NCBI GenBank assembly: GCA_017458285.1
Contig: JAFTFU010000004.1
Location: 52,561 to 116,560 of the forward strand
Direction: 5' to 3'
Length of the DNA stretch: 64,000 nt
Origin: Clostridia bacterium
Lineage (GTDB): Bacteria; Bacillota; Clostridia; TANB77; CAG-508
Shown: one piece after another, positions 2-59,434 of the stretch
How the letters are laid out: every line of letters starts with the position of its first letter
Position numbering within the stretch: position 1 is the stretch's first letter
Notes under the pieces: model-generated
What the model was told of the DNA's origin: nothing
Databases searched by the model: none
What the model saw: the letters and a program-made list of their open reading frames with translations, nothing else
Position numbers and translations under genes: made by a program

Positions 2-3000
2 ACAATTACTAAATTAGCTTATTCTTAGGCATCGTTAGCAGATACTGCTTTTACTTATCCAACTGTTTGGAATGGATATGAGTTACGTGCTACTACAAAA
101 TCTGCATTAAGAGACGCAATAGAAAAACAAGGAATTCATGAAGATTATTTACTTTGGGGTGGGCATGCTCTAGGTACTAACAGTTGGAGTCCAATTGATA
201 CAGTGTTAAATGATTATACTCGTGGAAATGGTTTTGCAGGTTTACCTGCTGCAAACATAACAGTTGAACACTCTACTAATGCAGGCTCTTCTTGGACTAC
301 AACTTCAGTATCAGATTTAGTAAAATGTAATTTAGTAACTAATGATTAGTCTCAAGTTAGAATTGTAGCAAGTGGAAATGTTCCTAATAATGCAAATCCT
401 CAATTGAGAATAACGATTAAATGTTCTGGTTCAACTTATTTTTAGTTAAAAAAGATTCATATTTTGATTAGTACGAGTGGATCATCAGGATGTAAAGTTA
501 CTATTAAAGGTTCTTTAAATTCTGCACCTACTAATTTTAATTAGACAATTTGTGATGATGTTGCTGTTACTGGGTGGAGTGGATGGAATTCTATTACTTG
601 TGATACAGTTGTAGGTGCAAATGATAGTCAAATTCATTCTTTACAATTTACTTTTACTTAGACAGGTGTTAGTTCTAGTTATGTTACATCGGGGTTCTGT
701 GTTTACAATATTTCTGGATATGGTTATATGAAACATACAGCTCCTTCACAATTAGCAAAATAGAGTCATGTTTATACCATAGATGGTAATGATAATGTAA
801 CTTTTCCAAATACAGGCTCTGTAATAATTAGTAAAACTCAAGATGCATCGGGAACAGCTGATAATAAACCAGCTTTAATTGTAGGTGGTCTTTCAACCGG
901 CTCTCATATTGAAATAGATTCAAATGAAATTCTTGCTAAATCTAATGGAACAACTCCTACAACATTATATTTACAAGATACTACTGGAACTGTCTCGGTC
1001 GCAGGTAGTGGAGGTTTAATTGTTTCAAATTTAACTGCATCTCAAGCAGTTTCTACAGACACAAATAAAAAATTGGTTTCTTCTAATCTTACTACAGCAG
1101 ACCCTTCAGCTTCTGGTTCAGGAATTACTTATATAGCAAGTATTTCTTAGAGCGCGATTGGTAAAATTACAGCTACTAAATCAACAGTAAGAAATGCTTC
1201 TACTTCACAAACAGGCGTTTTACAATTTACTGCAGCTAATACAAATACACAATTAAATACTTTAACTACCGGTAGTTCTACACCAGTAGATGCAGATTAT
1301 TATATTTCTCAATATGTTGGGGGAGGTACAACTACTACAACGTATCATCGTCGTCCAATGTCCGCACTGTGGGATTATATAAAAGGACATATTATTGACG
1401 ATTTATATTGGGCTAATATTAAAGTATAGGATAGTAGTAAGACTGATACTATTCCTACTTTTAAAACTATTTATTTTGGAAGTGTTGATCCTACTACAAG
1501 TGGAAGAGGTATATTAACATTCAGTTCTACATACCCTAATTATGGATTATGGTATTTTAATGATTCTACTGATGTTATTACTTTAGATGGCCATGGAAAA
1601 GCCAATAGTAAAACAGAAGCTGATTTAGCCATTAATGCTTTAGGTGCGGGTATTATTTCTACAAGAAATAGATATATACCTCATACTGGAAATACTACTG
1701 GTACAGTTGGTACAGCAATAAAACCTGTATATGTAGATGCTGGACAAATTAAAGCCAGCACTTCTACTATTGGAACTTTTGAAAAACCAATATATTTAAA
1801 CGCGGGCACCATTACTGCTTTAAATCCTGTTTGGCTATTAAGTGGTGGAACTGCAACTGCGAATAATGAAGATTTAAACGCTGCAAAATATAAAGTCATT
1901 GGAAATTATTATAGTGATGAAAATGCTAAATCTAAAACTATTTTAAATAGTCCTTTTGGAGCCGCTGCTTCTACTAATTGTTTAAGTTTTACCCTAAAAA
2001 CAGAAGCCTCTTTAGGCACAGGTACAACTTATCTTCGCTAGCTTTGGAGAAGTTATAATTCAGGAGTTGAAGCTGAAAGAACTTCTGCAAACAGTGGTTC
2101 TTCTTGGTCTACTTGGAGAACTAAAGTATTTAAAAATAGTGATGCTACTACTGCCGCTGGAAATAGTACAACACCAGTTTATGTAACTGCAAATGGTGCT
2201 GTTGCTACAGGTTATCCTTATTTAAGATATATTAATTCAACGGATGTTACAACTTATTCTGTAGATGAATTAGGAAAAACTGCAAGCATTGCATATATTA
2301 GAGCTACTGATGCTAATGCTCCTGTGTCAGGTCATATGATGTATATTAATGCTGGAATAGGACATATGGGAACTCCATTTTAGATTGGTATTCATGATAG
2401 TGATAATTTATATATTTATAAAAGATGGTATTCTTCTAGTGCATGGTCTGCTTGGACTAAGATGAATGCAGGACATGCAGACACTGCTTCACAAGTTTAT
2501 TCTACTCATACGTATCCAACAACTCGTTCATATATAGAATATCAACAAAATTAGTCTACTGGAAGTGGCAACGTTAGTTTAAGACACCATAATGCATTAT
2601 CAGTAAGTAGTAATATGGATACGACGAATACTTCAACAAGATGGACAGAATTATGGATTGGTAATGCAACTGCCTCTGGGACAGTTGGTAATAGTCAAGG
2701 TTGGTTAGCTCTTTATACTTCTGGAGTAAATTATACATAGATTTCCGCTTATGGAACTGGTAATAACAATTATTTTAATATTCCTAATTATTCAGGAACA
2801 GGTTATGCTCTTACTAGTTCAACTTTAACTAAAGGTTCAGCTACTAAAGGAATATATATTACTACAAATGGTCAAGCAGCAGAAATGTCTCATGAATTAA
2901 AAGCTACAGTTAATTCAGGAACTGAAAGTCGTTTAGCTTATTATTCAGCTGAGGGAACTATTTCTCCTGCTTCTCATATTTAGTATATTCCTACTCAAAA

Positions 3001-5977
3001 TGCAGAGTTAGGTACAACTAAAGGTTCAGTAAATGGTTTATTTATTTATGGTCCTGCTTATGGCAATGACACTGCTAATTTAGGAAGTGCTACGATTAAT
3101 GTATTTAGATATGGAGACCCTGGTCCTTAGATTAGATTTAGCACTGGATTAGGAACTGCTAATGCAGGAGCTGCAGAATCAAGCGCTATAATTTGGTCTG
3201 ATCATTCTTCTAGCATTGGAACAGATTAGTCTTTTCATTTTGTAGGATAGAATAATACATCTCATGCAGCTTCTAATGTTGGAGTTGTAACAAATACTTT
3301 TATTGGTAAAACACGTATATCTGCTGGTGTAAATTATGCTAATACTAATTATGTACTTTTTTCTAATGGTACAACAGGAATAAATGGATAGCTTTATTTG
3401 CAAGGCGCTTCTACAAGAGATACTGCACCTTCTTCTAACGATAATAGAGTTTTATATTTTACAGATTCAGCACGAAATGATTAGGGCCATATTTATTTTA
3501 GACATAATACTGCTGGTCAGCATTTAATGTATTTAAATACTTATTCTTCTGGCACTAAAGGAACTAGAGATCATATTGTATTAATTTCTGATACTGATAC
3601 TACAGATCCTCATTATATACAAATTAATTCTAGAATTAGCACTGGATTAAATATTAGTGGTACTAGAGGTTTTGCATATAATGCTGCTACCGCTGGAACG
3701 CATATTAGTGCGGCTGGCAATATACATATTACAGCAGCGTCACCTTATATTTAGTTTTATAATAATACTTCAGCATCTTATACGGGATATATTCAAGATA
3801 CAGCTGCTAATGGCATGGTTTTTAATCATGCAACAGTAGCAACGACCGCAGTTACCGCTTTAAGTCCTATTAATTCAAGTTTTAAACCTTAGTTTCAATT
3901 TGGAGGCTTAACTTATGTTAATGGAATATTAACTACTAATGGCTCTGCTTATATTAAAGGACGTGTTACAAGTTATGACTAGTGGAATATAATTTATTTA
4001 TCTAATATTACTAAAACAACAGCCCCCTCAAGTAGCACAGATGGAGGAATTATATTAAGAGATAAAGCAGGTACTAATTTAGCACTATTTCGAATTTGGG
4101 AAAATACCTCAATGGATAGATGTGCCAATATGTATGTTTATGGTAATAGCAATAATGCTGAAGTATCAATTTTTGCAAAAGCAGATGGTGATAGATATTT
4201 ACAGTGGACTGGAGGTATTATAAATCATACAGTTGAAGTCCGAGGACTTTTAAAGAGTACTAATTATTCTAATACTGTAACTATTGGTTCACAAAATGCA
4301 GGTTACACTCATATTTATAATAGTGCTAATATTCCTTTCATTTTTAATAAAAGTGTTTTAACTGCTGCGGGGGATTTAGGTGATACATCTTATCCTTGGC
4401 ATAATATTGTTTTAGGTAATTCTGCAGGAACAGCAAATGCTGATATTATTTTACATAGTTCTAAAGCTAATAATACACTGATTAGATTTTTAGTTAATAC
4501 TTCTAATGGTGATGGTCAAGGTATCCGCATTGGCGGCGGAGGATTAACCATTATTGGCGGTGGAGAATCTGCAGCAACAGTATAGTCTGGCACTGGTTAT
4601 GCAAGCGATGCAGAACAAATGCTTGTTACCAATGATTCGAGCATTAAATTTTATCCCAATCAATAGAGTGGTTATACTGCTTCAGCTTTAATTGAAATGA
4701 CTGCAGGTAGACTTTGGGTTGGAGTTAATGGAGATACTACAAGAGAGAATCAAATTTTAGTTCAGTCAGGCGCAGGACAATTATATATGTATAGCGCTGC
4801 TTCTACGACAGGAGCAAAGGGAATATATTTTCCTGCTCATGGAGATAATCCAGCAGGCTATATTGCTTATGTTGATTCAGAGCATAGAGTTTATTATAAT
4901 GGTAATTTTACAAGCCAAAGAGTTAAATTAATTGCAAATCAAGGTTCGCAAATTAATTCTGGAGTTTGGCTTAGAACTTGTATTGTTCAGAGTTATTAGA
5001 ATTATGCTAATTTTTAGATTAGATTAACTGGAGGATGGTCAACTGGTAGTCCAACAATAGCTACTATTGATGTAAATATGCGTAATGGTTTGGCTTCTAT
5101 GAAATTAGTTCATAGAGGATTTTTAGGAGTAATTGGTAAAGTAAAATTAGTTAAATTAGCAACTAATACCGCATATTTAGATGTTTATGTAAGAGAAAAT
5201 TCTAATAATACAGATTATTTTGGTCAATTTATTGGAAATGTCACTGTTACTCAAGATAATAATACAACTCATGGAACAACAAATGTTACTACTACAGATG
5301 TTACTGGTTTAGACGTTTTAGATTTAACAGTTGCAGTAGGAAATGCTTCAACACCAGTATATATTGATGCCACTGGTAATCCTGTAGCTTGCACCGCTTA
5401 TAATTCCGCAACAAATATTAGAGCTGCAACAGTTAATATTAACAATGATACAACTTCTAAATTATTTGTTTTAGGAGCAACTACTACTGGGTATACTTCT
5501 ATTTATAGAGAATCATCTGTATACATGCAAAACAATGTTCTTATGGGAGCTGCTTGGAACGACTATGCAGAATTCCGTCAATCAAAAGAAAGTAAAAAAA
5601 TTGAACCAGGTAGAGTAGTTTATGAAAATGGTGATGATACATTAAGTATGTCAAATGAGAGATTAATGCGTGGATGTAGTATTGTATCTGATACTTATGG
5701 TTTTGGCATTGGCGAATCTGAAGAGGCTCAACTTCCAATAGCCGTTTCTGGACGAGTATTAGCTTATCCCTATGAAAATAAAGAAGAATTTAAAACATAT
5801 ATTGGTTGGCCAGTTTGTTCTGGTCCAAATGGAACAGTTAGTATAATGACTGAAGAAGAAGAAATAAAATATCCAAGTCGTATTATTGGAACTATATCAG
5901 CAGTACCAGACTATGAGATTTGGCATGGTGGTGTTGATGTAATAGTTGACGGGCGAGTTTGGATTAAAGTGAGGTAA
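2..5977 (+). CDS. giant tail fibre / receptor-binding protein (5' end outside window; ~1991 codons here, dozens of sense TAG codons)
   Basis: Frame 2 stays open from nt 2 to TAA 5975-5977 if TAG is sense. This was checked codon by codon at 2-1500, 3750-4120 and 4580-5080. Track ORFs 3527, 4112, 4697 and 5078 are all in this frame. Composition is S/T/G/N-rich and fibre-like. The C-terminus (AAWNDYAEFRQ...AVSGRVLAY...DGRVWIKV) resembles the autoproteolytic intramolecular-chaperone domains of phage fibres. Confidence 0.8.
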
Positions 5978-15126: not shown

Positions 15127-16017
15127 CGTTTTTATCTGATGTTACCATCAGCACTGACTATATCTTCTATCTTACGATAGCCTTCCGCTTCGAGTATGTG
15201 CCTATCTCATACCCTACTCCCTTACATTCATCAGGGATAGTCGATACACTTTATTTTAGATATATTCGTTTTCTTCATATGCAATTTGCCATTCATCTTT
15301 ATAGAGCTTTTTTATTCGACCTAAACAACGACGAGAAATAAACTAATGATTACTTTCTTTAAAGAAATCTTGCATTTGTTTTTGAGTATCAAAATGATAT
15401 TCTTCTTTTGTATTTATATTTCTACATTTTACTTTTGTAGAATGTGGATTTTTATTTCCCATTTTACTTTGTCGCAATTTTTCTTTAATTATTTTCATTT
15501 CTTCATCTGTTTTATTTTTGTAAGTATTTCCGCCACATTTATACTCGGCATTAGTTTCATTATAGCCATTTTTAACACTATTATACCAAGCTATCCAATA
15601 ATGTTCTTTTGCGGTTAATTCTCGCTAAGAAGTAGCTGTATCTAATAGTTCTAATTTAAAATTATCTGGGCCATAATATCTAATTGCTCGTGCAAAATGA
15701 GTGTCTAATATATTATTTAAAGCATCATTCTTATGACGCTTCCATCGTTCTTCAATGGGACGAATACTCTATCCTATATATACCTTATTATTTTTTATAT
15801 TTGTGATTTTATAAACGAACATATTAACATTCTCCTTTTATATTATTATCGTTCATTTTATTTAAAAAATGTTCGACACAATTTAAGGAAAAATGTCCTA
15901 AAATCTTAGCACGGTCTCATCCACTTGGGACCTAACCGTTAGCATACGGACCACCTGCGGCCGCACACACCCTCGGGCGAGGTTCAAAAGGTTTTACATG
16001 AGCTGTAGTTTCCGCTT
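15127..16017 (-). mobile_element. group I intron (T4 td-like, IA2-type) in nrdD
   Basis: The 5' exon ..CAUGGGU pairs with the intron guide GCUCAUG (7 bp, U.G at the splice site). Core elements GCUAACGGU and GAUAUAGUCAGUGC are present. The intron ends ..GAUAAAAACG. An in-frame TAA lies 7 codons into the intron. Confidence 0.8.
15256..15822 (-). CDS. intron-encoded GIY-YIG homing endonuclease
   Basis: MFVYKITNIKNNKVYIG(TAG)S; 189 codons, 3 sense TAG, TAA 15256-15258. Confidence 0.8.
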
Positions 16018-17280
16018 ACCCATGGTTGAGAAGTAAGTCTTGGGGTCATTAATATCATACCCCGCATTACCAGACCAATCAATATTAGCATAATTAGGAT
16101 AAAGACGTTTTGCTGTAGATTTTAATGCTAATTGATATAAATCATAATTAGGGTCACCGGGTTCTCTGTTAATACCTTTCATACATTGGAAAATTCCACA
16201 TGGAAATATTGAAGTTTTATGAAGTTTACCAAGGCCTTCAATAGATACTTCTAATAGAGCTTTAGTTACCATACGACCTTCGGGTAAGGTACAGGTTCCA
16301 TAATTAATAGAGGTAAAAGGTAATTGATTACCACTGCGAGATTGCAAAGTATTAAGATTATGATACATACCTTCCACAGCTTGATGGACTTCTTTTTCTG
16401 TCATATCCATAGCATATTGATAAGCAGCTTTATGTGATTCATCATTAGCTTCAATATCATCAAAAGATAATTCTTTAGGAATAGAATCTAAATAATCTTG
16501 ATCTGTAACCCCTTCAAGATATTTTAATCCATCAATCATATGTTTACGAAAACTTTTACGAACATATGGAACCATAGTCCAATCTAAATGTGTTGCAGAT
16601 ACACCACCAAACTATTGAAGGCTTTGTAACTGGAAAATAACTGCTACTAATTGAAATGCAGTATTTACAGAACCAGCAGGACGTACATCAGTTTGACGAG
16701 TATTAAATCCATTAGCAAGTAAATCATCAAAAGGAATAGATAAACAATTATGATTTCCTACATAATAATTATCAAGGTCATGAATATAAATCATATTACC
16801 TTCATGATTTTCTCTAGCTTTTTTAGAAATTAAATAATCTAATGCTAATTTTTTAGTAACAACTGCTGCAGCTTCTCCTGTGCGTCCGCCAAAAGAATGT
16901 TCATCTACATTAGCATTTTGATTTTGAACATCAGTAGCTTCCAGCTTTTCACGAATAGCATCAATAAAATCATGCTAGTAATTACGAGCCACTTCTTTTT
17001 TATATCTATATCTTATATAAGCTCTTGCAACATCAGGGCGCTCAGAACGCATAAGATATTCTTCAACTAAATCTTGAATTTCTTCTACGGAACAACTATT
17101 TCCATCTTGATATTTAAAACAATCTTCAATATCATAAGCAATATCATATGCAGTATCATCTTCATAGAGTTTTCCATCTACTTCAATAAATGCTGCATTT
17201 ATTGCATCTATAATTTTTTGTTTATTAAAATCGACGATATCACCATTTCGTTTAATTACAAGCAATATTATCTCCTCCAT
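16018..17280 (-). CDS. nrdD: anaerobic ribonucleotide reductase NrdD, exon 1 (ATP-cone plus N-terminal barrel)
   Basis: Track ORFs 16975, 16612 and 15994 join in frame through 2 sense TAG. The exon ends ..YFSTMG at a U. 421 codons. Confidence 0.85.
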
Positions 17281-17940: not shown

Positions 17941-19318
17941 TCAATACTTTCTCCTTTATACCTTTCTGTTTGTAAAGTTAAATCTCCATCTTTATCAATA
18001 TCTATAATATGATATAATTGATGTCCCCCAGAAGTAGCATATTTTTTAGTAATAAAAGTATCTCCTGAACGAATGCCTTGCACCATTATCATACTACCCC
18101 TATTAAACCAGCTTAATTCTTGACGATGCTTTATACCATCTTCTCCTATTTCAGAAATAGTTTTATCAAATAAAGCAAAATACTCTTTTCTAAATTTAAC
18201 ATTTACTACTCCATCAGTAGTTAAAATGGTGGCAATTCCTTTAGTTTTATTTTTAGCAATACAAGTGCCGCAAATTTTAAAGAGTTTAAACATATTTATA
18301 GTTTTTTTACCTTTTGTAAAACTCTTATCTATAATTGGCTCTTCTGGTAATGAATAAAAATTGCTTAATCCATATTTACCCATATTTACAGTAGATAATT
18401 CATGAGGGTGATGATAAAAACAAAGAACTTCCATTTCCCAAGAAGAATAATTTCCAGAAGCATATTTATTCCAATCTAATTTAAAGATTTGATCATTTAA
18501 TTGCTGAAGAACTTCATTACCAGATTCTTTTAACCAATCTCTAAAAATATCCATTACAGATTGATAATACTTATCCCAAACCTTCGCTATTAAAATATTA
18601 TTTTCTGAAATTATATCATCTTTATCAATTTTAGTTAAAAAATCTACTGCACGAGTATCTAATTGATAATAGCCTGGTAATTTATCATTTTTACAAACTG
18701 CCTTTAAATATCTATTAAATTCATAAACACTAAAAGCAAATTGTCTTTCTTCTGTGTCTCTTGGAATTAAATTCATTTTATTTAATGTTGGCATATTTTG
18801 AAGTGTTAAACGAGATTTTTTATCACAGGTTTGCCAAATAAACCACGCCATTGCTAATTTTCTATCCATCATTTTATCAAAAGCTCCTGCTTTAATTAAT
18901 GATACCATAGATTGCTTTTTTGGGCTAATTTTTTGATAAAAATCTTTAATAGATATGTATGGTCTATTTGCAATAATTTCACGAACTAAATCATCATTGA
19001 CGTTTAACAATGCTTTCATTCCAAATAGAATTTGATGATTTTTTACATCTGGTTTAAATCCAAAATCAGATTGATTAATATCAACTAAGCTTACATTAAT
19101 ACCAGCATTAATAATTTCATTTAACGCTTTTGCGATTTTACCATAATCAGTGCTTACAGTTTTATCATCTTCAATATCACTATTTTCATCTTCTAATGAA
19201 CCACTGTTTACAACTAAGCAAGCAGTATCCCAATAAATTGGGTCAAAAGAAGTTGCAAGATATAAAGTTTGAACACCTACAAAACTATATGCTAAACTAT
19301 GAATTGTTGAAAAACTAT
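17937..19318 (-). CDS. dnaE: DNA polymerase III alpha (DnaE-like), exon 3
   Basis: The first 2 nt complete codon TAT, giving ..PQMG-Y-SFSTIHSLAYSFVGVQTLYLA (the G-Y-x-F-x-K-S-H-x-x-A-Y region of DnaE). TGA at 17937-17939. Confidence 0.8.
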
Positions 19319-24140: not shown

Positions 24141-25354
24141 TCAATTTTTTTGAATCACAACTAATTTTTTTGCAGCGCGTGTAATTCCTGTATATAAATA
24201 TTTTTTTCTTTCTACTTGGCCTCTTGGCCATCCAGATTCTTCACAAAGTAATACTTTATCCCACTCGCTACCTTGAGCTTTCCATACACTAATAGCATAA
24301 CCAAAATTAGCATGTAATGGTAAAGCAAACTTTTTATGTAAACGATATTCTTCTTTTGGATTTAAAGATGGACTTCCTGTTAATAATTCATTATAATCAA
24401 ATGATATCATATCATATTGTTCATCATCATTATCGCCTGAGATAGTAGCTGTTAAAATAGGGACTGAAAAAGAATGCCCACGCACCCAATAAGGATAATT
24501 CCAATTAGAAATTGTCATTTGTTTTATTGTTCCAATTACGCCGTTGGTTAAAGGATTTTGTTGATTTGATAAAATTTCCCATTCATTATGAAGATTAATT
24601 ATTTTATCTCCTACCATAGGCTCATTCGGTAATTCTTGGGCCGCTCTCATTTGATTATTAAGAATTAATTTATTACGAGTTGTAGCACATAAAACTTGAT
24701 CAGCCCATAATAACATAGATGTGGATAAATCAGATTTATGAAACATCATAACTTGTTCATTTTTACAAGGAAAAGTGCTTAATGGATTACCTTGCCGCAC
24801 ATGCATTGATAAACGAATAATTTCACTTTCTTGTGCTTGTCTCATTATTTCATCTAAAAAAATATGAGGACTATCTAAGACATGATTATCAGCATCTTCT
24901 CCTGGCGTATCTGAAATGGGAGATAATTGTTCAGGGTCTCCACAAGCTAAAATATAAAAATTATGTTGACATAATAGATCCCACATTTTCCAAGGTAACA
25001 TACTAACTTCATCTACTACAACTATTTTTATTTCTGATTCCATTTCAAATGGAGCTTTTGGAACAAAAACATAATTACCTGTAGGCATTCTACGTGCATG
25101 ATATAAAAGTTTGTGGGCTGTAGTTGGATTAGGACAATTTTTTTGTTTTAATACATTTGTTGCTTTTCCAGTATAAGCAATATATCTTACTTCATTTTCT
25201 TGTACACCTAAAGCATCAATAATAAAACGAACAAGAGTTGATTTTCCAGTTCCTGCCGTTAAGCGTAGCCAGAGATAATGGTATATTTAAATCCTGCTTG
25301 ATATCTGGCTACTGCAATTTGCAATCCTTGTTCTTGTTTTGTTGTAAGAGTCAA
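24141..25354 (-). CDS. Dda/RecD-like SF1 helicase, interrupted by a -1 frame change at the Walker A motif
   Basis: TTG 25354 after AAAGGAGG gives LTLTTKQEQGLQIAVARYQAGFKYTIISGYA, then TAA at 25259-25261. The -1 frame continues (L)TAGTGKSTLVRF..VVVDEVSML..GDPEQLSPI..VWKAQGSEWDKV to 24141. Confidence 0.7.
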
Positions 25355-25848
25355 AGATTTTCCTCCTTTCTGAATAAATTTTCAATATTCCATAAATTTG
25401 CATGAATTTCTCTATGACAATTTGCACAAATTAAAATACATTTTTTACTTTCTTCTAAACAATCTTTTAATTTAAAATCTCTATCTCCTATTGTAAAATC
25501 TTTTTTAGAACTATCTAAATGGTGAAAATCTAAGGCTCCTAAATAAGCATTATATCCACAGCGCTCACATTTTCCTCCGCGCTATTTTCTAATTAAATCT
25601 AAAAATTGACTTCGCGTATATTGAGTACCTTCTGGCATACATTCATAACAACACTATCGTTGATTGGCTGCAGCACTTCTAGGTATAAATTCATTTTCAC
25701 AAATTAAGCATTTTCGAGGAGTTTTTAATCCTTGATTAGTTTTTTTTCGTAACTGACGAGCAAGATATTCACAATGTTTACTACAATATTTAGCTGTAGA
25801 TTTTTTACATTCAAATTCATTGTTACAAATTATACAATTTTTAATCAT
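25351..25848 (-). CDS. free-standing HNH endonuclease with N-terminal CxxC zinc fingers
   Basis: ..LDFHHLD..KCILICANCHREIHA. 2 sense TAG. TGA overlaps the helicase TTG start. Confidence 0.75.
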
Positions 25849-26200: not shown

Positions 26201-26246
26201 ACATCCACCTCTATTATATATTATAACATTTTTTAATTTTTGATTC

Positions 26247-26344
26247 AAAAATTTTGAAAAGTGATTTTAATTCTGAATTGCGATTGTGGTGGTCCTGCGC
26301 GGCCGCTGCAGGTATTTTCCTCGCAAGGGTGTGTGCGTGTGAGC
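26247..26344 (+). repeat. GC-rich structured element, copy A (second copy at 57195-57287)
   Basis: AAAATTTTGAAAAGTGATTTT..ATTGCGATTGTGG..CCTGCGCGGCCGCTGCAGG..CCTCGCAAGGGTGTGTGCGTGTGAGC. It aligns along its whole length with copy B in the same orientation. It contains a NotI palindrome. Confidence 0.6.
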
Positions 26345-26350
26345 TATGTG

Positions 26351-26956
26351 TTACCACGCAGTTGCAATATCAAGTTGATAAATATTGCGTTTAGCAAAGC
26401 CGCCAGTATCGCAAACAATGCCTAAACCAAGAGATGTCTGAACAATGCTACCTCTAGGATGGACAGACAAATTAGCAGCGCACATTACATAATTACCTAA
26501 CATTTTAACACCATCTTGTCGTACCCAATATGGATATTCAGTTTCAGAAAATCCTCTGTTACGCATAATGCGTACAACTCCACCCATAGGAAGATTATAA
26601 TAAGTTTCTTTACCAGAAGGGCCATAGTTAACGCCTTTAGATTTTGTTAATTTAGAACCTGTCCAAGAAAATGTAACAGCTTCACTTGCTTTCAAATTAT
26701 CTAACTTCTTTTGAATATCTGTTTGAGCATTATGAGCTGCCCACCATTCAGATTGGGCTGTAGCAATAATAGTATGGTCTTCAGCATATCCTAAAGCTCT
26801 TGCGGCTTCTGCCATTTGATGTGCATAATTCTTTCGTTCTTCAAATTGATTAATTAGACTTTCATGTTCTTCAATTGTAGTAGGTTCAGTGGCAAAAACA
26901 TTAAAAGGTAAAATAAAACTAAATAGTAATAATGTACTAATAATAATTTTTTTCAT
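26351..26956 (-). CDS. secreted 3D-domain protein (cell-wall-binding / lytic-transglycosylase-like)
   Basis: Signal peptide MKKIIISTLLLFSFILPFNVFA. C-terminal ..VHPRGSIVQTSLGLGIVCDTGGF..QLDI is typical of 3D domains. Confidence 0.75.
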   Translation of the reverse strand: MKKIIISTLLLFSFILPFNVFATEPTTIEEHESLINQFEERKNYAHQMAEAARALGYAEDHTIIATAQSEWWAAHNAQTDIQKKLDNLKASEAVTFSWTGSKLTKSKGVNYGPSGKETYYNLPMGGVVRIMRNRGFSETEYPYWVRQDGVKMLGNYVMCAANLSVHPRGSIVQTSLGLGIVCDTGGFAKRNIYQLDIATAW

Positions 26957-57194: not shown

Positions 57195-57287
57195 AAAATT
57201 TTGAAAAGCGATTTTGGTTTTGGATTGCGGATGTACTGACCCTGGCCGGCCGCAGCAGATATTTTTTTCGCATGCATGTGTGTGAGC
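57195..57287 (+). repeat. GC-rich structured element, copy B
   Basis: AAAATTTTGAAAAGCGATTTT..ATTGCGGATGT..CTGGCCGGCCGCAGCAG..TTCGCATGCATGTGTGTGAGC. Collinear with copy A at 26247-26344. Its 3' end merges into the operon terminator. Confidence 0.6.
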
Positions 57288-57316
57288 CCCTTATATACGT
57301 TATGTATATAGGGGGC
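57286..57316 (+). terminator. rho-independent terminator of the radical SAM cassette
   Basis: 12-bp stem gccccttatata / tatatagggggc with a 7-nt loop, followed by TTTAATTT. Confidence 0.75.
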
Positions 57317-57321
57317 TTTAA

Positions 57322-57373
57322 TTTGACTCTTTTTTTTTTTTTGTTACTATAAAAGAAAAAAGGAGTTGAAAAT
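57322..57373 (+). promoter_or_regulatory. conserved promoter/5'-leader cassette (copy 2) TTTGACTC-T13-GTTACTATAAAAGAAAAAAGGAGTTGAAAAT-ATG
   Basis: Nearly identical to the reverse complement of 6972-7030. Confidence 0.45.
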
Positions 57374-57941: not shown

Positions 57942-58712
57942 TTAACCATAATAGCCTCCATCGGGAGGGTCTCTGCGATATTGCCAATCTCTAGGACAAG
58001 TAACATTCATCCAACTGGGTCCGGAGCATTTTCCTTCATGAACACAACGAGCGCACTGCCTTCTTTTATATTCATCAACTTTTAACCAAGTTTCATAAGG
58101 CTTAATTTTAGTAACATCAGGTTCAACGCAAATATCATGTGGAGTAGTTCCTTCTTTAATCAAATGCGTATCTGTCCATTTAGTTTTCATCTCTTGGATA
58201 ATATCATTTAAATTACAAGGATAACAATCGTGAGCATCCATTGCAGTATTATACATCCAAAGATTATTCTCAAAGAAATGTTCTTTTTGATGAGTATGTC
58301 CAAAAAGATTAAGAGTCATTTGTTTTAAAAACTTATCATTATTCCCAGTGAGAGAAGGAAAATGACTCATATAAAAATGGTATCCCTGATGCTTTAGATA
58401 AATAGAATTTTTTGTTTCTACTACATTAGGAAGTTTAGAAAAAGCTTCCCATCTTTTATCTGTACAATGATTACCTCTAACTAAATGTAATTTTCCATTT
58501 ATTCTACTAATTAGATTTAAACCTTGTTCTAAACTTTTTTCTCCCCCTAAAAGAAGATCTCCTAATACATACAAATCATCTTCTGGTTTAACCAATTTAT
58601 TATTTCTTTTAATAATTTCTTCGTTCATTTCATTAACAGAAGAGAAATTTCGTGCTTTCCAAATAAATTCTCTATTGTGGCAAAAATGCCAATCACTTGT
58701 TATAAAAATCAT
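57942..58712 (-). CDS. calcineurin-like metallophosphoesterase with Cys-rich C-terminus
   Basis: SDWHFCHN, LGDLLLGG, GNHC and GHTH motifs. No TAG. Confidence 0.75.
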   Translation of the reverse strand: MIFITSDWHFCHNREFIWKARNFSSVNEMNEEIIKRNNKLVKPEDDLYVLGDLLLGGEKSLEQGLNLISRINGKLHLVRGNHCTDKRWEAFSKLPNVVETKNSIYLKHQGYHFYMSHFPSLTGNNDKFLKQMTLNLFGHTHQKEHFFENNLWMYNTAMDAHDCYPCNLNDIIQEMKTKWTDTHLIKEGTTPHDICVEPDVTKIKPYETWLKVDEYKRRQCARCVHEGKCSGPSWMNVTCPRDWQYRRDPPDGGYYG

Positions 58713-59367
58713 AAAACATCAATCCTTCATCTAAAGTGTCTGTTTTTGGAATTTCTTTCCAATGATAACCATAAGCTTTTTCAGTTATGCCATTTAGACA
58801 ACGTCTTATATTAGGATGTGCTGTCTTTTTTAAATATATATCTACATCAGCCATTGATTTGAAAACTAAATTTTTCTCTACTAATACAATATAACTTTTA
58901 ACAGGCTTTATTCCTAATGCTCGTTTAGATAATTCTTTATAGTTAATATTTTTAGAATTTAATGCTGTATATACTACCTAATCATAGATTTGAAAATATT
59001 GACAAGTTTTAGTTATTGAACAGCCATTTAATAAATAATAATTTACAATTTCATCGTAATTATATTTTGTATGACCTAAACCACCCAGGGCCGCATTATA
59101 TCCATTTTTAAAACTATTATAATGATTTATCCAAAATATTTCTCTTTCATTTAATTTTGAATTTTCACATTCCTCAATTTTTTCAATTATAAAATTCTAT
59201 TCACCATATTTATTAATCGCTAAATGTAAGGGAGCATTATGATCTTTATCCTACTCATTTTTTGCACTTTTACAATGGTCTAACCATCTGCGATGAATGG
59301 AATTTCTTGTCTATCCAATATATAATTTTTGATTTAATTTATTTGTAATTTTGTAAATAGAACCCAT
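58693..59367 (-). CDS. free-standing GIY-YIG homing endonuclease
   Basis: MGSIYKITNKLNQKLYIG(TAG)T .. AYGYHWKE. 225 codons. The end overlaps the phosphoesterase start. Confidence 0.8.
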
Positions 59368-59434
59368 ATTATAACACCTTCCTTTATAATACTTAAAAAA
59401 TATCACGATACGGTGTCATAAAACTGTCCAAAAC

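What the first reader, a model, noticed from the sequence alone, without database searches (positions are those of the whole stretch)
26247..26344. Two collinear copies of a ~95-nt GC-rich structured element containing 8-bp rare-cutter palindromes
Copy A (26247-26344) and copy B (57195-57287) align end to end in the same orientation: AAAATTTTGAAAAG(T/C)GATTTT .. ATTGCG .. a GC palindrome hairpin (GCGGCCGC in A, GGCCGGCC/CGGCCGC in B) .. TATTTT .. TCGCA .. TGTGTG..TGAGC. They are islands of more than 55% GC in a ~30% GC genome. Copy A is antisense to its flanking genes. Its 5' arm ATTGCGATTGTGGTGG can pair over about 15 bp with CCACGCAGTTGCAAT, which encodes the last codons of the 3D-domain gene. 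Copy B lies between the Cys-rich gene stop and its terminator. Part of A (CCTCGCAAGGGTGTGTGCG) resembles the P2-like region of the nrdD intron. The elements could be a small RNA, a 3'-UTR or processing element, a degenerate intron fragment, or a recombination or endonuclease target.
Basis: seen in the sequence. Interest (0 to 1): 0.6.

Follow-up and report, generated by a model that had tools for sequence, protein, structure and literature searches.

The report
Conserved AT-box plus GC-rich phage element
The two look-alike GC-rich islands are real members of an undescribed family of short non-coding elements found only in large uncultured phages that read TAG as glutamine; each has an almost invariant 29-base AT-rich box followed by a fast-evolving GC-rich stretch, all copies lie on one strand, and the most likely reading is a set of small non-coding transcripts, with function unproven.

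Summary
The contig has three collinear copies, not two: A at 26248-26344, B at 57195-57287, and C 6.7 kb left of the window. All are on the + strand. The closest relative phage (139.6 kb) has six, also all on the + strand. Four further lineages of TAG-recoded phages carry one copy in a tRNA cluster, antisense to the tRNAs; two of these genomes are complete and hold a single copy.

The shared feature is a bipartite box, AAAA(T/A)TTTGAAAA-N4-5-TTTT-NN-TTTTGG. It is followed by CGG and a GCSGSC..AGCAG motif at fixed distance, inside 50-75 GC-rich bases that are otherwise unalignable between lineages.

- At loci B and C the element is 85-95% identical between two phages whose flanks are 40-70% identical.
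- Rfam gives nothing.
- Similarity to the nrdD intron is limited to 10-12-nt words (E about 1-15).
- No secondary structure is conserved family-wide. B folds no better than shuffled sequence. C has two strong hairpins. A pairs with the 3D-gene end.
- Related bodies in the relative sit directly behind textbook sigma-70 promoters on the same strand. B, C and E run into terminators on that strand.

Best reading (about 0.4): short non-coding transcription units (sibling small RNAs). A polar DNA site is a serious rival.

The parts
26248..26276 (+). Copy A, conserved AT-rich box (AAAATTTTGAAAAGTGATTTT + AATTCTGA)
   Evidence: Exact 21-mer. The box is aligned across 14 family members. It is identical in the sister phage except for two bases.
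26277..26344 (+). Copy A, GC-rich body. It contains GCGGCCGC (26299-26306), a T-run (26314-26318) and an alternating purine-pyrimidine tract GTGTGTGCGTGTG (26329-26341).
   Evidence: It is 88% identical to orthologue A' while the flanking genes are 93-97% identical. Taken alone it folds no better than shuffles (z +0.2).
26268..26289 (+). Copy A, 5' arm of a long-range stem
   Evidence: Pairs with 26354-26378 in the minimum-free-energy fold (-41 kcal/mol, z -2.5). Against A' the outer stem (pairs 1-20 with 91-110) shows four changes that keep pairing, one of them A-U to G-C on both sides, and one break at its inner end (pair 21-90).
26354..26378 (+). Copy A, 3' arm of the stem. It is the antisense of the last nine codons of the 3D-domain gene.
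   Evidence: The two arm changes in A' are synonymous in the 3D gene (read from the sequences).
26220..26248 (-). Sigma-70-type promoter (TTGAAT-17-TGnTATAAT) for the next minus-strand gene. It lies back to back with the box of copy A.
   Evidence: 10 of 12 matches plus a TG motif. A similar divergent promoter lies next to the box in D and K156 (sequences).
57195..57223 (+). Copy B, conserved AT-rich box (AAAATTTTGAAAAGCGATTTT + GGTTTTGG). It starts 2 nt after the TAA stop of the Cys-rich gene.
57224..57287 (+). Copy B, GC-rich body. It contains GGCCGGCC (57244-57251), a T-run (57262-57268) and an alternating tract CGCATGCATGTGTGTG (57269-57284).
   Evidence: About 85% identical to orthologue B' while the flanks are 40-75% identical. 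No stable fold (z +1.5).
57287..57343 (+). Terminator-like hairpin (CCCCTTATATAC-GTTAT-GTATATAGGGGG) with a T13 run. It would end both the radical-SAM operon and any transcript of copy B.
   Evidence: Read. The B' locus has a different hairpin flanked by an A-run and a T-run at the same place.

Best explanation
A, B and the third copy C belong to a family of short non-coding transcription units, 'sibling' small RNAs of about 70-130 nt read from the + strand.

Proposed parts:
- The almost invariant 29-nt AT-rich box sits where the promoter or 5' leader sits. The transcript would start at or just before the GG that ends the box.
- The GC-rich body is the RNA.
- Where a terminator is at hand (B, C, E) the RNA ends at the terminator it shares with the neighbouring operon.

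In most lineages there is one such unit, inside the tRNA cluster. In the lineage of this window it has multiplied to at least six.

Copy A would be antisense to the 3' end of the 3D-domain (cell-wall hydrolase-like) gene. Its own 5' arm masks that antisense stretch.

Shown: the family, the box, the conservation, the positions, the strand, and the promoters in front of related bodies. Inferred: that the box-type copies are transcribed, where the transcript starts, and any regulatory role.
For: 1. The box is conserved in at least five phage lineages while the body diverges beyond alignment. Syntenic pairs D/G and E/I show no body similarity.
2. At loci B and C the element is 85-95% identical between two phages whose flanks are only 40-70% identical.
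3. In the sister phage, related bodies J, M and N (CGGCCG plus a GYGY tract; C-J z 6.9, I-M z 4.4, A-J z 3.9) lie directly behind sigma-70 promoters on the same strand. M and N were scored by the scan: TTGACA-18-TATAAT at 12/12 and TTGACA-17-TAAAAT at 11/12. J's promoter (TAGACA-17-TAAAAT with TG) I read by eye from the sequence. By my count from those sequences the distance from the -10 hexamer to CGGCCG is 27-33 nt, against 31 nt from GATTTT of the box.
4. B, B', C, C' and E are followed within 100-135 nt by intrinsic terminators that work on the element's strand.
5. C and C' fold into two hairpins (z -3.4 and -3.9). Their differences fall in loops or are absorbed by a register shift. Three to four G-U pairs exist only on the + strand.
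6. The outer stem of A keeps pairing through four changes, including one double compensatory change.
7. No coding signal. The TTG-started frame 'MKSDF..' varies from 12 to more than 46 codons. It has an in-frame TGA in B. Between A and A', 14 substituted bases in 11 codons include only one synonymous codon change (my reading of the sequences).
Against: - The box does not match a sigma-70 promoter: GATTTT is a poor -10 hexamer and there is no conserved -35 hexamer.
- No sigma-70-family or T7-type polymerase gene was found on the contig. No sigma-70-family gene was found in the sister phage.
- No secondary structure is shared across the family (alifold -1.3 kcal/mol).
- A', B, G, H, D and the K copies fold no better than shuffles.
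- A small-RNA reading does not explain why all 6 box-type copies in the sister phage and all 3 here, plus the 3 to 5 related right-arm bodies there, lie on one strand whatever the gene direction.
- No complementary target was found in the phage or in the host bin.
Confidence: 0.4

Rival explanations
1. A polar DNA site. The box plus the GCSGSC..AGCAG motif at fixed spacing is bound by a phage or host protein on double-stranded DNA. It would act in an orientation-dependent process, such as a replication origin (AT-rich unwinding box next to a GC clamp, possibly transcript-primed), a strand-specific nick site as in T5, or a guide signal for a translocase or packaging motor.
For: - All copies in a genome lie on one strand regardless of gene direction: 3 of 3 here and 6 of 6 box-type copies in the sister phage, with 0 on the other strand.
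- The two complete genomes of other lineages have exactly one copy.
- Conservation is of sequence and spacing, not of pairing.
- The box is made of phased A4/T4 tracts, typical of bent or easily melted DNA.
- A lies next to the recJ/dnaG/helicase module.
- In this lineage the bodies are G-rich on the non-template strand (GC skew +0.2 to +0.4) and carry 13-29-nt alternating purine-pyrimidine tracts that could form Z-DNA.
Against: - GC skew and the alternating tracts are absent in the other lineages.
- The ancestral copy sits in a tRNA cluster, not by replication genes.
- Six or more origins or nick sites in one lineage against one in the others is odd.
- It does not explain the textbook promoters in front of related bodies, or the G-U-only pairs in C.
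- The recurrent GTGCGTG word is not over-represented in the host bin (18 seen on both strands against about 14 expected per strand), so a host Chi role is unlikely.
Confidence: 0.25
2. A cis-acting RNA signal inside operon 3' ends. It would be a nut/put-like antitermination or processing/stabiliser element that acts on the polymerase or the mRNA just before a terminator, letting late genes downstream (tail fibres after C, the 145-aa fibre-like gene after B) be read.
For: - B and C lie between a stop codon and a strong terminator that is followed by late-type genes.
- The box can form a small AAAA/UUUU hairpin whose four-base loop is the only variable part (GUGA, GCGA, GCAA, GCCA). This resembles a boxB-type GNRA hairpin.
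- C has two stem-loops like HK022 put.
Against: - A, G, I, D, E and the K copies point against all neighbouring genes, so there is nothing downstream to antiterminate.
- The tail-fibre gene after C has its own promoter.
- The four A-U pair hairpin is marginally stable and is lost in copy I.
- No N- or Q-like protein was identified (not searched exhaustively).
Confidence: 0.12
3. Decaying fragments or recombination products of the phage's own group I introns, or another mobile GC-rich element, with no present function.
For: - The phage carries at least six introns of one family with a CUGCGGCCGCAG hairpin (earlier notes).
- A shares AGGGTGTGTGCG with the nrdD intron. C shares AACGGTTAGG and GTGTGTGCGG with it, all in the sense orientation.
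- Homing-endonuclease genes lie near A, B, D and F.
Against: - The shared words have E about 1-15 each.
- An HMM of the copies does not hit any intron.
- Rfam finds no intron-like signal.
- The defining box is not in the introns.
- The element is more conserved than its flanks at B and C and is kept at syntenic sites in distant lineages, which decay would not give.
- No target-site duplications or empty sites were found. Relatives of the 3D gene without the element have different neighbours.
Confidence: 0.08
4. A small protein gene starting at the TTG inside the box (MKSDF...).
For: - An open frame starts at TTG AAA AGY GAT TTT in all copies.
- The only variable base of the 21-mer in the close copies is a synonymous third position (AGT/AGC).
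- Diverged copies show Ser to Thr and Asp to Asn changes.
Against: - There is no Shine-Dalgarno sequence.
- Frame lengths are 12, 19, 21, 26, 28, 34, 38, 41 and more than 46 codons.
- B has an in-frame TGA where B' has TGG.
- A versus A' shows 14 substituted bases (3 first-position, 8 second-position, 3 third-position) in 11 codons, of which only one is synonymous (read).
- AAA, GAT and TTT never use synonymous alternatives in 14 copies. That points to nucleotide-level, not protein-level, constraint.
Confidence: 0.03

Closest known systems
PeSLs, the composite promoter-early/stem-loop cassettes of T4-like phages (Arbiol et al. 2010, PMC2839356; Comeau et al. 2014, PMC4122927)
   Same: Both are short conserved non-coding cassettes repeated in intergenic regions of large virulent phage genomes. 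Both combine a promoter-like AT-rich part with a GC-rich stem-loop part and differ slightly between phage lineages.
   Different: PeSLs carry a near-consensus sigma-70 (or MotA) promoter preceded by the terminator stem-loop. They cluster in hyperplastic regions and flank ORFans that differ between related phages. Here the box is not a sigma-70 consensus and the GC-rich part lies downstream of it. Copies lie 10-33 kb apart at module boundaries, all on one strand irrespective of gene direction. Other lineages have a single copy.
Sibling small RNAs with a conserved 5' region and a Rho-independent terminator (for example OmrA/B, Qrr1-5, LhrC1-5; from general knowledge)
   Same: There are several paralogous copies per genome. 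The most conserved block is at the 5' end, the middle is variable, and several copies end in an intrinsic terminator. Some sit in mRNA 3' UTRs and share the mRNA's terminator.
   Different: No transcript, promoter or target has been shown. The conserved block is pure A/U with no anti-SD-like seed. No common fold exists.
Lambda pR'-tR' '6S' transcript and the nut/put antitermination sites of lambdoid phages (from general knowledge)
   Same: Both are a short promoter-proximal unit that ends at a strong terminator just upstream of late genes (loci B and C). There is a possible small GNRA-type hairpin. C has two stem-loops.
   Different: Half of the copies face away from any gene. No Q/N analogue was identified. 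There is no sequence similarity.
T4 oriF/oriG-type origins (promoter plus downstream region forming a persistent R-loop) and the T5 strand-specific nick sites (from general knowledge)
   Same: Both have several copies in a large virulent phage and strand polarity. There is a promoter-like AT-rich part next to a segment that is G-rich on the non-template strand in this lineage.
   Different: The T4 downstream element is AT-rich, not GC-rich. There is no evidence here for initiation or nicks. G-richness is lineage-specific.

Membership tests
Group I intron (whole or fragment) | Conserved catalytic core (P3-P9, G-binding P7) recognisable by the Rfam covariance model | tested here: not met
   No Rfam hit at gathering score or at E<5 on either strand near A or B. 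The phage's bona fide introns are also missed by Rfam, so this alone is weak.
Group I intron (whole or fragment) | Significant sequence similarity to the phage's own intron family | tested here: not met
   Only words of 10-12 nt match (E 0.96-15). An HMM of the copies finds no intron.
Group I intron (whole or fragment) | Interrupts a gene, with a P1 guide pairing to the exon end and a U-G pair at the splice site | tested here: not met
   A, B and C are intergenic. B starts 2 nt after a stop codon, and no split reading frame is restored.
Intrinsic (Rho-independent) terminator | GC-rich hairpin immediately followed by a U-tract, conserved among copies | tested here: inconclusive
   A has CCTGCGCGGCCGCTGCAGG followed by TATTTTCC, flagged by the scan, and B has a T7 run. 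Paralogues G and H have A-runs at that place. In A' the hairpin is weakened.
PeSL (promoter-early stem-loop cassette) | Near-consensus sigma-70 early promoter within the repeat | tested here: not met
   No -35/-10 pair in the box at any spacing of 16-18. The best candidate is GATTTT with a non-conserved upstream hexamer. The related bodies M and N do have such promoters.
PeSL (promoter-early stem-loop cassette) | Stem-loop upstream of the promoter, and co-orientation with the flanked genes | tested here: not met
   The GC-rich part is downstream of the box. Orientation is independent of gene direction.
Trans-acting small RNA with terminator | Own promoter and a discrete transcript | not testable with these tools
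Promoter scans are inconclusive.
Trans-acting small RNA with terminator | Intrinsic terminator on the same strand | tested here: inconclusive
   Present after B, B', C, C' and E. Absent or not co-oriented after A, D, G and the K copies.
Trans-acting small RNA with terminator | Complementary target for the conserved region | tested here: not met
   No site within 4 mismatches of the 21-mer or its complement in the phage contigs or the host bin, beyond the copies themselves and matches that look like chance.
Chi-type recombination hotspot of the host | Short word over-represented and strand-skewed in the host chromosome | tested here: not met
   GTGCGTG occurs 10+8 times against about 14 expected per strand in the 2.06-Mb bin, and CGGCCG 4+4 against 15. 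By contrast GAAGCGG occurs 96+61 against 14. This assumes the bin is the host.
MITE/REP-like mobile repeat | Terminal inverted repeats, target-site duplication, empty sites in relatives | tested here: not met
   No inverted repeats or duplications are shared by the copies. The inverted repeat of A includes coding sequence of the 3D gene. No empty site was found.

The most novel reading that the evidence does not exclude
The box plus its fixed-distance GC motif is a previously unknown polar genome signal of TAG-recoded large phages. Candidates are a transcript-primed replication origin or a strand-specific nick or loading site. It is single-copy and tied to the tRNA/suppressor-tRNA cluster in most lineages and amplified on one strand in this one. 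It might then link genome replication or late-phase events to the region that carries the code-switching tRNA.
Probability: 0.2. Interest if true: 0.75.

Novelty: new variant of a known kind. Interest (0 to 1): 0.55.

Why it matters
Large gut and rumen phages that read TAG as glutamine are known only from metagenomes. Almost nothing is known about how they time gene expression or start replication. This is a 29-nt signal conserved across at least five such lineages, sitting in the tRNA cluster that carries the suppressor tRNA and multiplied on one strand in one lineage. It is one of the few non-coding handles on their regulation. If it marks small RNAs, it adds a family missing from Rfam. If it is a DNA site, it could mark origins or nick sites. 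Either way it gives a precise sequence to probe once such a phage is cultured or a metatranscriptome is mapped.

Tried and rejected
- **Rfam.** Searches at gathering score and at E<5 gave nothing near the elements.
- **tRNA or tmRNA.** None in the window or the contig.
- **GenBank phages.** No blastn match for A, C or K156.
- **Looser box pattern.** GAAAAGYGATTTTNNTTYTG in viral contigs gave only chance hits beyond the known copies.
- **Synteny through the 3D-domain protein.** Of 39 related loci, only the sister phage has the element. The others have an ordinary terminator there.
- **Synteny through the Cys-rich protein and the 145-aa protein.** No relatives were retrieved.
- **Bacteroidetes-type promoter** (TTTG ... 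TAnnTTTG). The spacing is 11 nt instead of 19-21, so rejected (by eye).
- **Sigma-54, ECF-type, CodY-box, IHF and LexA-box readings.** Compared by eye from remembered consensus sequences. None fits in spacing or is conserved among the copies.
- **Virion RNA polymerase.** The 3465-aa protein is a tape-measure protein. No T7-type polymerase was found on the contig, and no sigma-70 domains on the contig or in the sister phage.
- **Chi hypothesis.** Rejected on word counts.
- **R-loop or G-rich reading.** GC skew is positive only in this lineage.
- **Coding reading.** Rejected on the substitution pattern.
- **Common RNA fold.** RNAalifold on five lineages gave -1.3 kcal/mol.

Full report
**Where the window lies.** The window is bases 52561-116560 of contig C101, which is 120.8 kb and 30% GC, in a 2.36-Mb metagenomic bin. 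The contig is a phage. It has a 3465-aa tape-measure protein, tail fibres, a replication module and many homing endonucleases. Earlier notes report that it reads TAG as glutamine. I used that code for all gene calls.

**The observation.**
- Copies A (26247-26344) and B (57195-57287) are as described. They align without gaps.
- The 21-mer AAAATTTTGAAAAGYGATTTT occurs exactly twice in the window. No shuffle reached two matches.
- A search of the whole bin found a third copy, C, at C101:45794-45888, 6.7 kb left of the window. It also found contig C110, an assembly duplicate of B. Nothing else in 2.36 Mb matched.
- All three copies are on the + strand.
- A lies between two minus-strand genes. B and C lie between a plus-strand stop codon and an intrinsic terminator.
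- GCGGCCGC or GGCCGGCC occurs nine times on the contig. Four of the other sites are in the 5' parts of group I introns and two are in coding sequence.

**The family.**
- Scanning public collections for the exact 21-mer found the sister phage IMGVR_UViG_3300021400_000219 (139.6 kb, collinear with C101). It has orthologues A', B' and C'.
- The same scans found unrelated contexts in other uncultured phages: D in a 183-kb phage, E, and a weaker F.
- An HMM of the copies then found three further, more diverged copies in the sister phage (G, H, I). That gives six copies, all on the + strand.
- A degenerate pattern found one copy each in two complete genomes, of 200 kb and of 175.6 kb with terminal repeats, and one in an 83-kb fragment.
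- D, G and these three all sit in tRNA clusters, and in each the element points against the tRNA genes. In D's phage, the sister phage and the 200-kb genome the cluster includes a suppressor tRNA(CUA).
- I and E are both convergent with a 134-aa minus-strand gene. I judge them syntenic by eye.
- So the element is old. It is single-copy in most lineages and amplified in the lineage of this window.

**What is conserved.**
- Aligning 14 members gives a bipartite box: AAAA(T/A)TTTGAAAA, four or five variable bases, TTTT, two variable bases, TTTTGG.
- Nothing upstream of the box is conserved.
- Downstream, across lineages, only CGG at about +6 and a GC(C/G)G(G/C)C..AGCAG motif at about +21 to +35 persist, within a GC-rich stretch.
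- Within this lineage the copies align without gaps over 100 nt. CGGCCG is at a fixed place, and a 13-29-nt alternating purine-pyrimidine tract lies further on.
- Between this phage and its sister, C is about 95% and B about 85% identical, while their flanks are 40-70% identical.
- A is 88% identical amid genes that are 93-97% identical.
- The element is therefore under constraint at B and C, and the box is constrained everywhere.

**Structure.**
- Taken alone, the bodies of A, A', B, G, H, I, D and the K copies fold no better than dinucleotide shuffles. B is worse than average.
- C and C' form two strong hairpins (z -3.4 and -3.9). Their differences fall in loops or shift the register of the second hairpin. 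Several G-U pairs exist only on the + strand.
- A forms a stem of about 20 bp between its 5' part and the antisense of the last codons of the 3D-domain gene (z -2.5).
  - Against A', four changes in this stem keep pairing, one of them a double A-U to G-C change.
  - The same region in A' is no longer better than shuffles.
- Five lineages at the tRNA locus have no consensus fold.
- 'Structured element' is therefore true for some copies but is not the family's defining property.

**Not an intron piece, not coding, not Chi.**
- Similarity to the nrdD intron is one 12-mer for A and two 10-mers for C (E 1-15). By pairing with GCACAUACUC in the intron's 3' half, I read the 12-mer as the 5' strand of P3 (inference).
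- The frame MKSDF.. that starts at the TTG in the box has no Shine-Dalgarno sequence. Its lengths vary widely, B has an in-frame TGA, and changes between orthologues are mostly non-synonymous.
- The recurrent word GTGCGTG is not enriched in the host bin.

**Which strand, and is it transcribed?**
- The right arm of the sister phage is absent from our contig. It holds related GC-rich bodies with CGGCCG plus a GYGY tract. Similarity to C, I and A is significant against shuffles.
- M and N there lie directly behind sigma-70 promoters on the + strand, scored 12/12 and 11/12 with a TG motif. J lies behind a promoter that I read by eye from the sequence.
- M and N lie among minus-strand early genes and run towards the terminators of those genes.
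- By my count, the distance from the -10 hexamer to CGGCCG is 27-33 nt. That matches the 31 nt from GATTTT of the box.
- This is the best evidence that the body is a + strand transcript and that the box occupies the promoter or leader position.
- Against it, the box is not a recognisable sigma-70 promoter. No phage sigma factor or single-subunit polymerase was found.

**Weighing.**
- The small-RNA reading explains the conserved 5' block, the variable body, the shared terminators, the promoters of related bodies, the + strand-only pairs and the multiplication in one lineage. It does not explain the strict one-strand orientation.
- A polar DNA site explains the orientation, the single copy in complete genomes and the conservation of sequence and spacing without pairing. 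It does not explain the promoters or the hairpins of C.
- I put 0.40 on small non-coding transcripts, 0.25 on a polar DNA site, 0.12 on a cis-acting antitermination or processing signal, 0.08 on an intron or mobile remnant, and 0.03 on a peptide. The rest is unassigned.

**Comparison with known elements.** The closest described things are the PeSL promoter/stem-loop cassettes of T4-like phages (PMC2839356, PMC4122927) and sibling small RNAs. The element fails the defining features of PeSLs that I could test: a consensus promoter, a stem-loop upstream, and co-orientation with genes. It is absent from Rfam and from GenBank phages. I rate it a new variant of a known kind, namely repeated regulatory non-coding cassettes or small RNAs of large phages, with moderate interest.

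Noticed in passing
window 15957, 22569, 44850, 47058 (minus-strand sense): Four group I introns (nrdD, Pol III alpha, two in gyrB) share a (C)UGCGGCCGCA(G) hairpin. In nrdD and Pol III alpha it directly follows a GUGUG(U)GC stretch that pairs with GCACAUACUC in the 3' half of the nrdD intron (probable P3). Rfam misses all of them even at E<5.
   Followed up: partly
L039 4262-4385 (183-kb phage Ga0256404_1000120), also L043 956-1075: A 120-nt GC-rich, non-coding stretch lies directly beside tRNA-Thr(UGU) on the tRNA strand and is conserved between two samples. It could be an unrecognised structured RNA or an odd tRNA that ARAGORN does not call.
   Followed up: no
L122 (G001 120001-139573), e.g. 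15977-16006, 16312-16340, 16532-16560, 18479-18506: The right arm of the sister phage (GC 39-42%, absent from our contig) is an array of perfect TTGACA-N16-18-TATAAT promoters with TG motifs, mostly on the minus strand in front of tiny genes. It also has recurrent TTTTGTGCAAAAT operator-like words and GCCCGGGCG plus GTTAGC..GCTAAC hairpins. It looks like a host-takeover early region.
   Followed up: partly
L194 about 1360-1400 (minus) and L039 about 4590-4630: About 110-150 nt downstream of the box at the tRNA locus there is a hairpin, TATAGCCGC..GCGCTATA (K156). In D it is replaced by TATATGCGCC..GCCATATA, that is, two apparent double compensatory changes. It may be the 3' end of the same RNA or a separate feature.
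   Followed up: no
host bin G000 without the phage contigs: GAAGCGG, the Staphylococcus-type Chi word, is 4-7 times over-represented (96 + 61 against about 14 expected per strand). This suggests a Firmicute host with an AddAB-type Chi of that kind.
   Followed up: no
G000:C110 (5.2 kb) and C108 (7.5 kb): These short contigs duplicate parts of C101 (the region of copy B and the gyrB region). They are probably assembly variants of the same phage population and contribute to the bin's 6% 'contamination'.
   Followed up: no
window 25351-25848 (-): A free-standing HNH endonuclease gene (CANCHREIH motif, two in-frame TAG codons) lies 400 nt from copy A. A GIY-YIG gene (58693-59406) lies 1.4 kb from copy B. 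Endonuclease-like genes also neighbour D and F.
   Followed up: no
G001 52974 vs window 26248; G001 map vs C101: The structural module of the two phages is only 65-77% identical, while the replication module is 90-96% identical. The genomes are strongly mosaic, and our phage carries more intron and endonuclease insertions.
   Followed up: no
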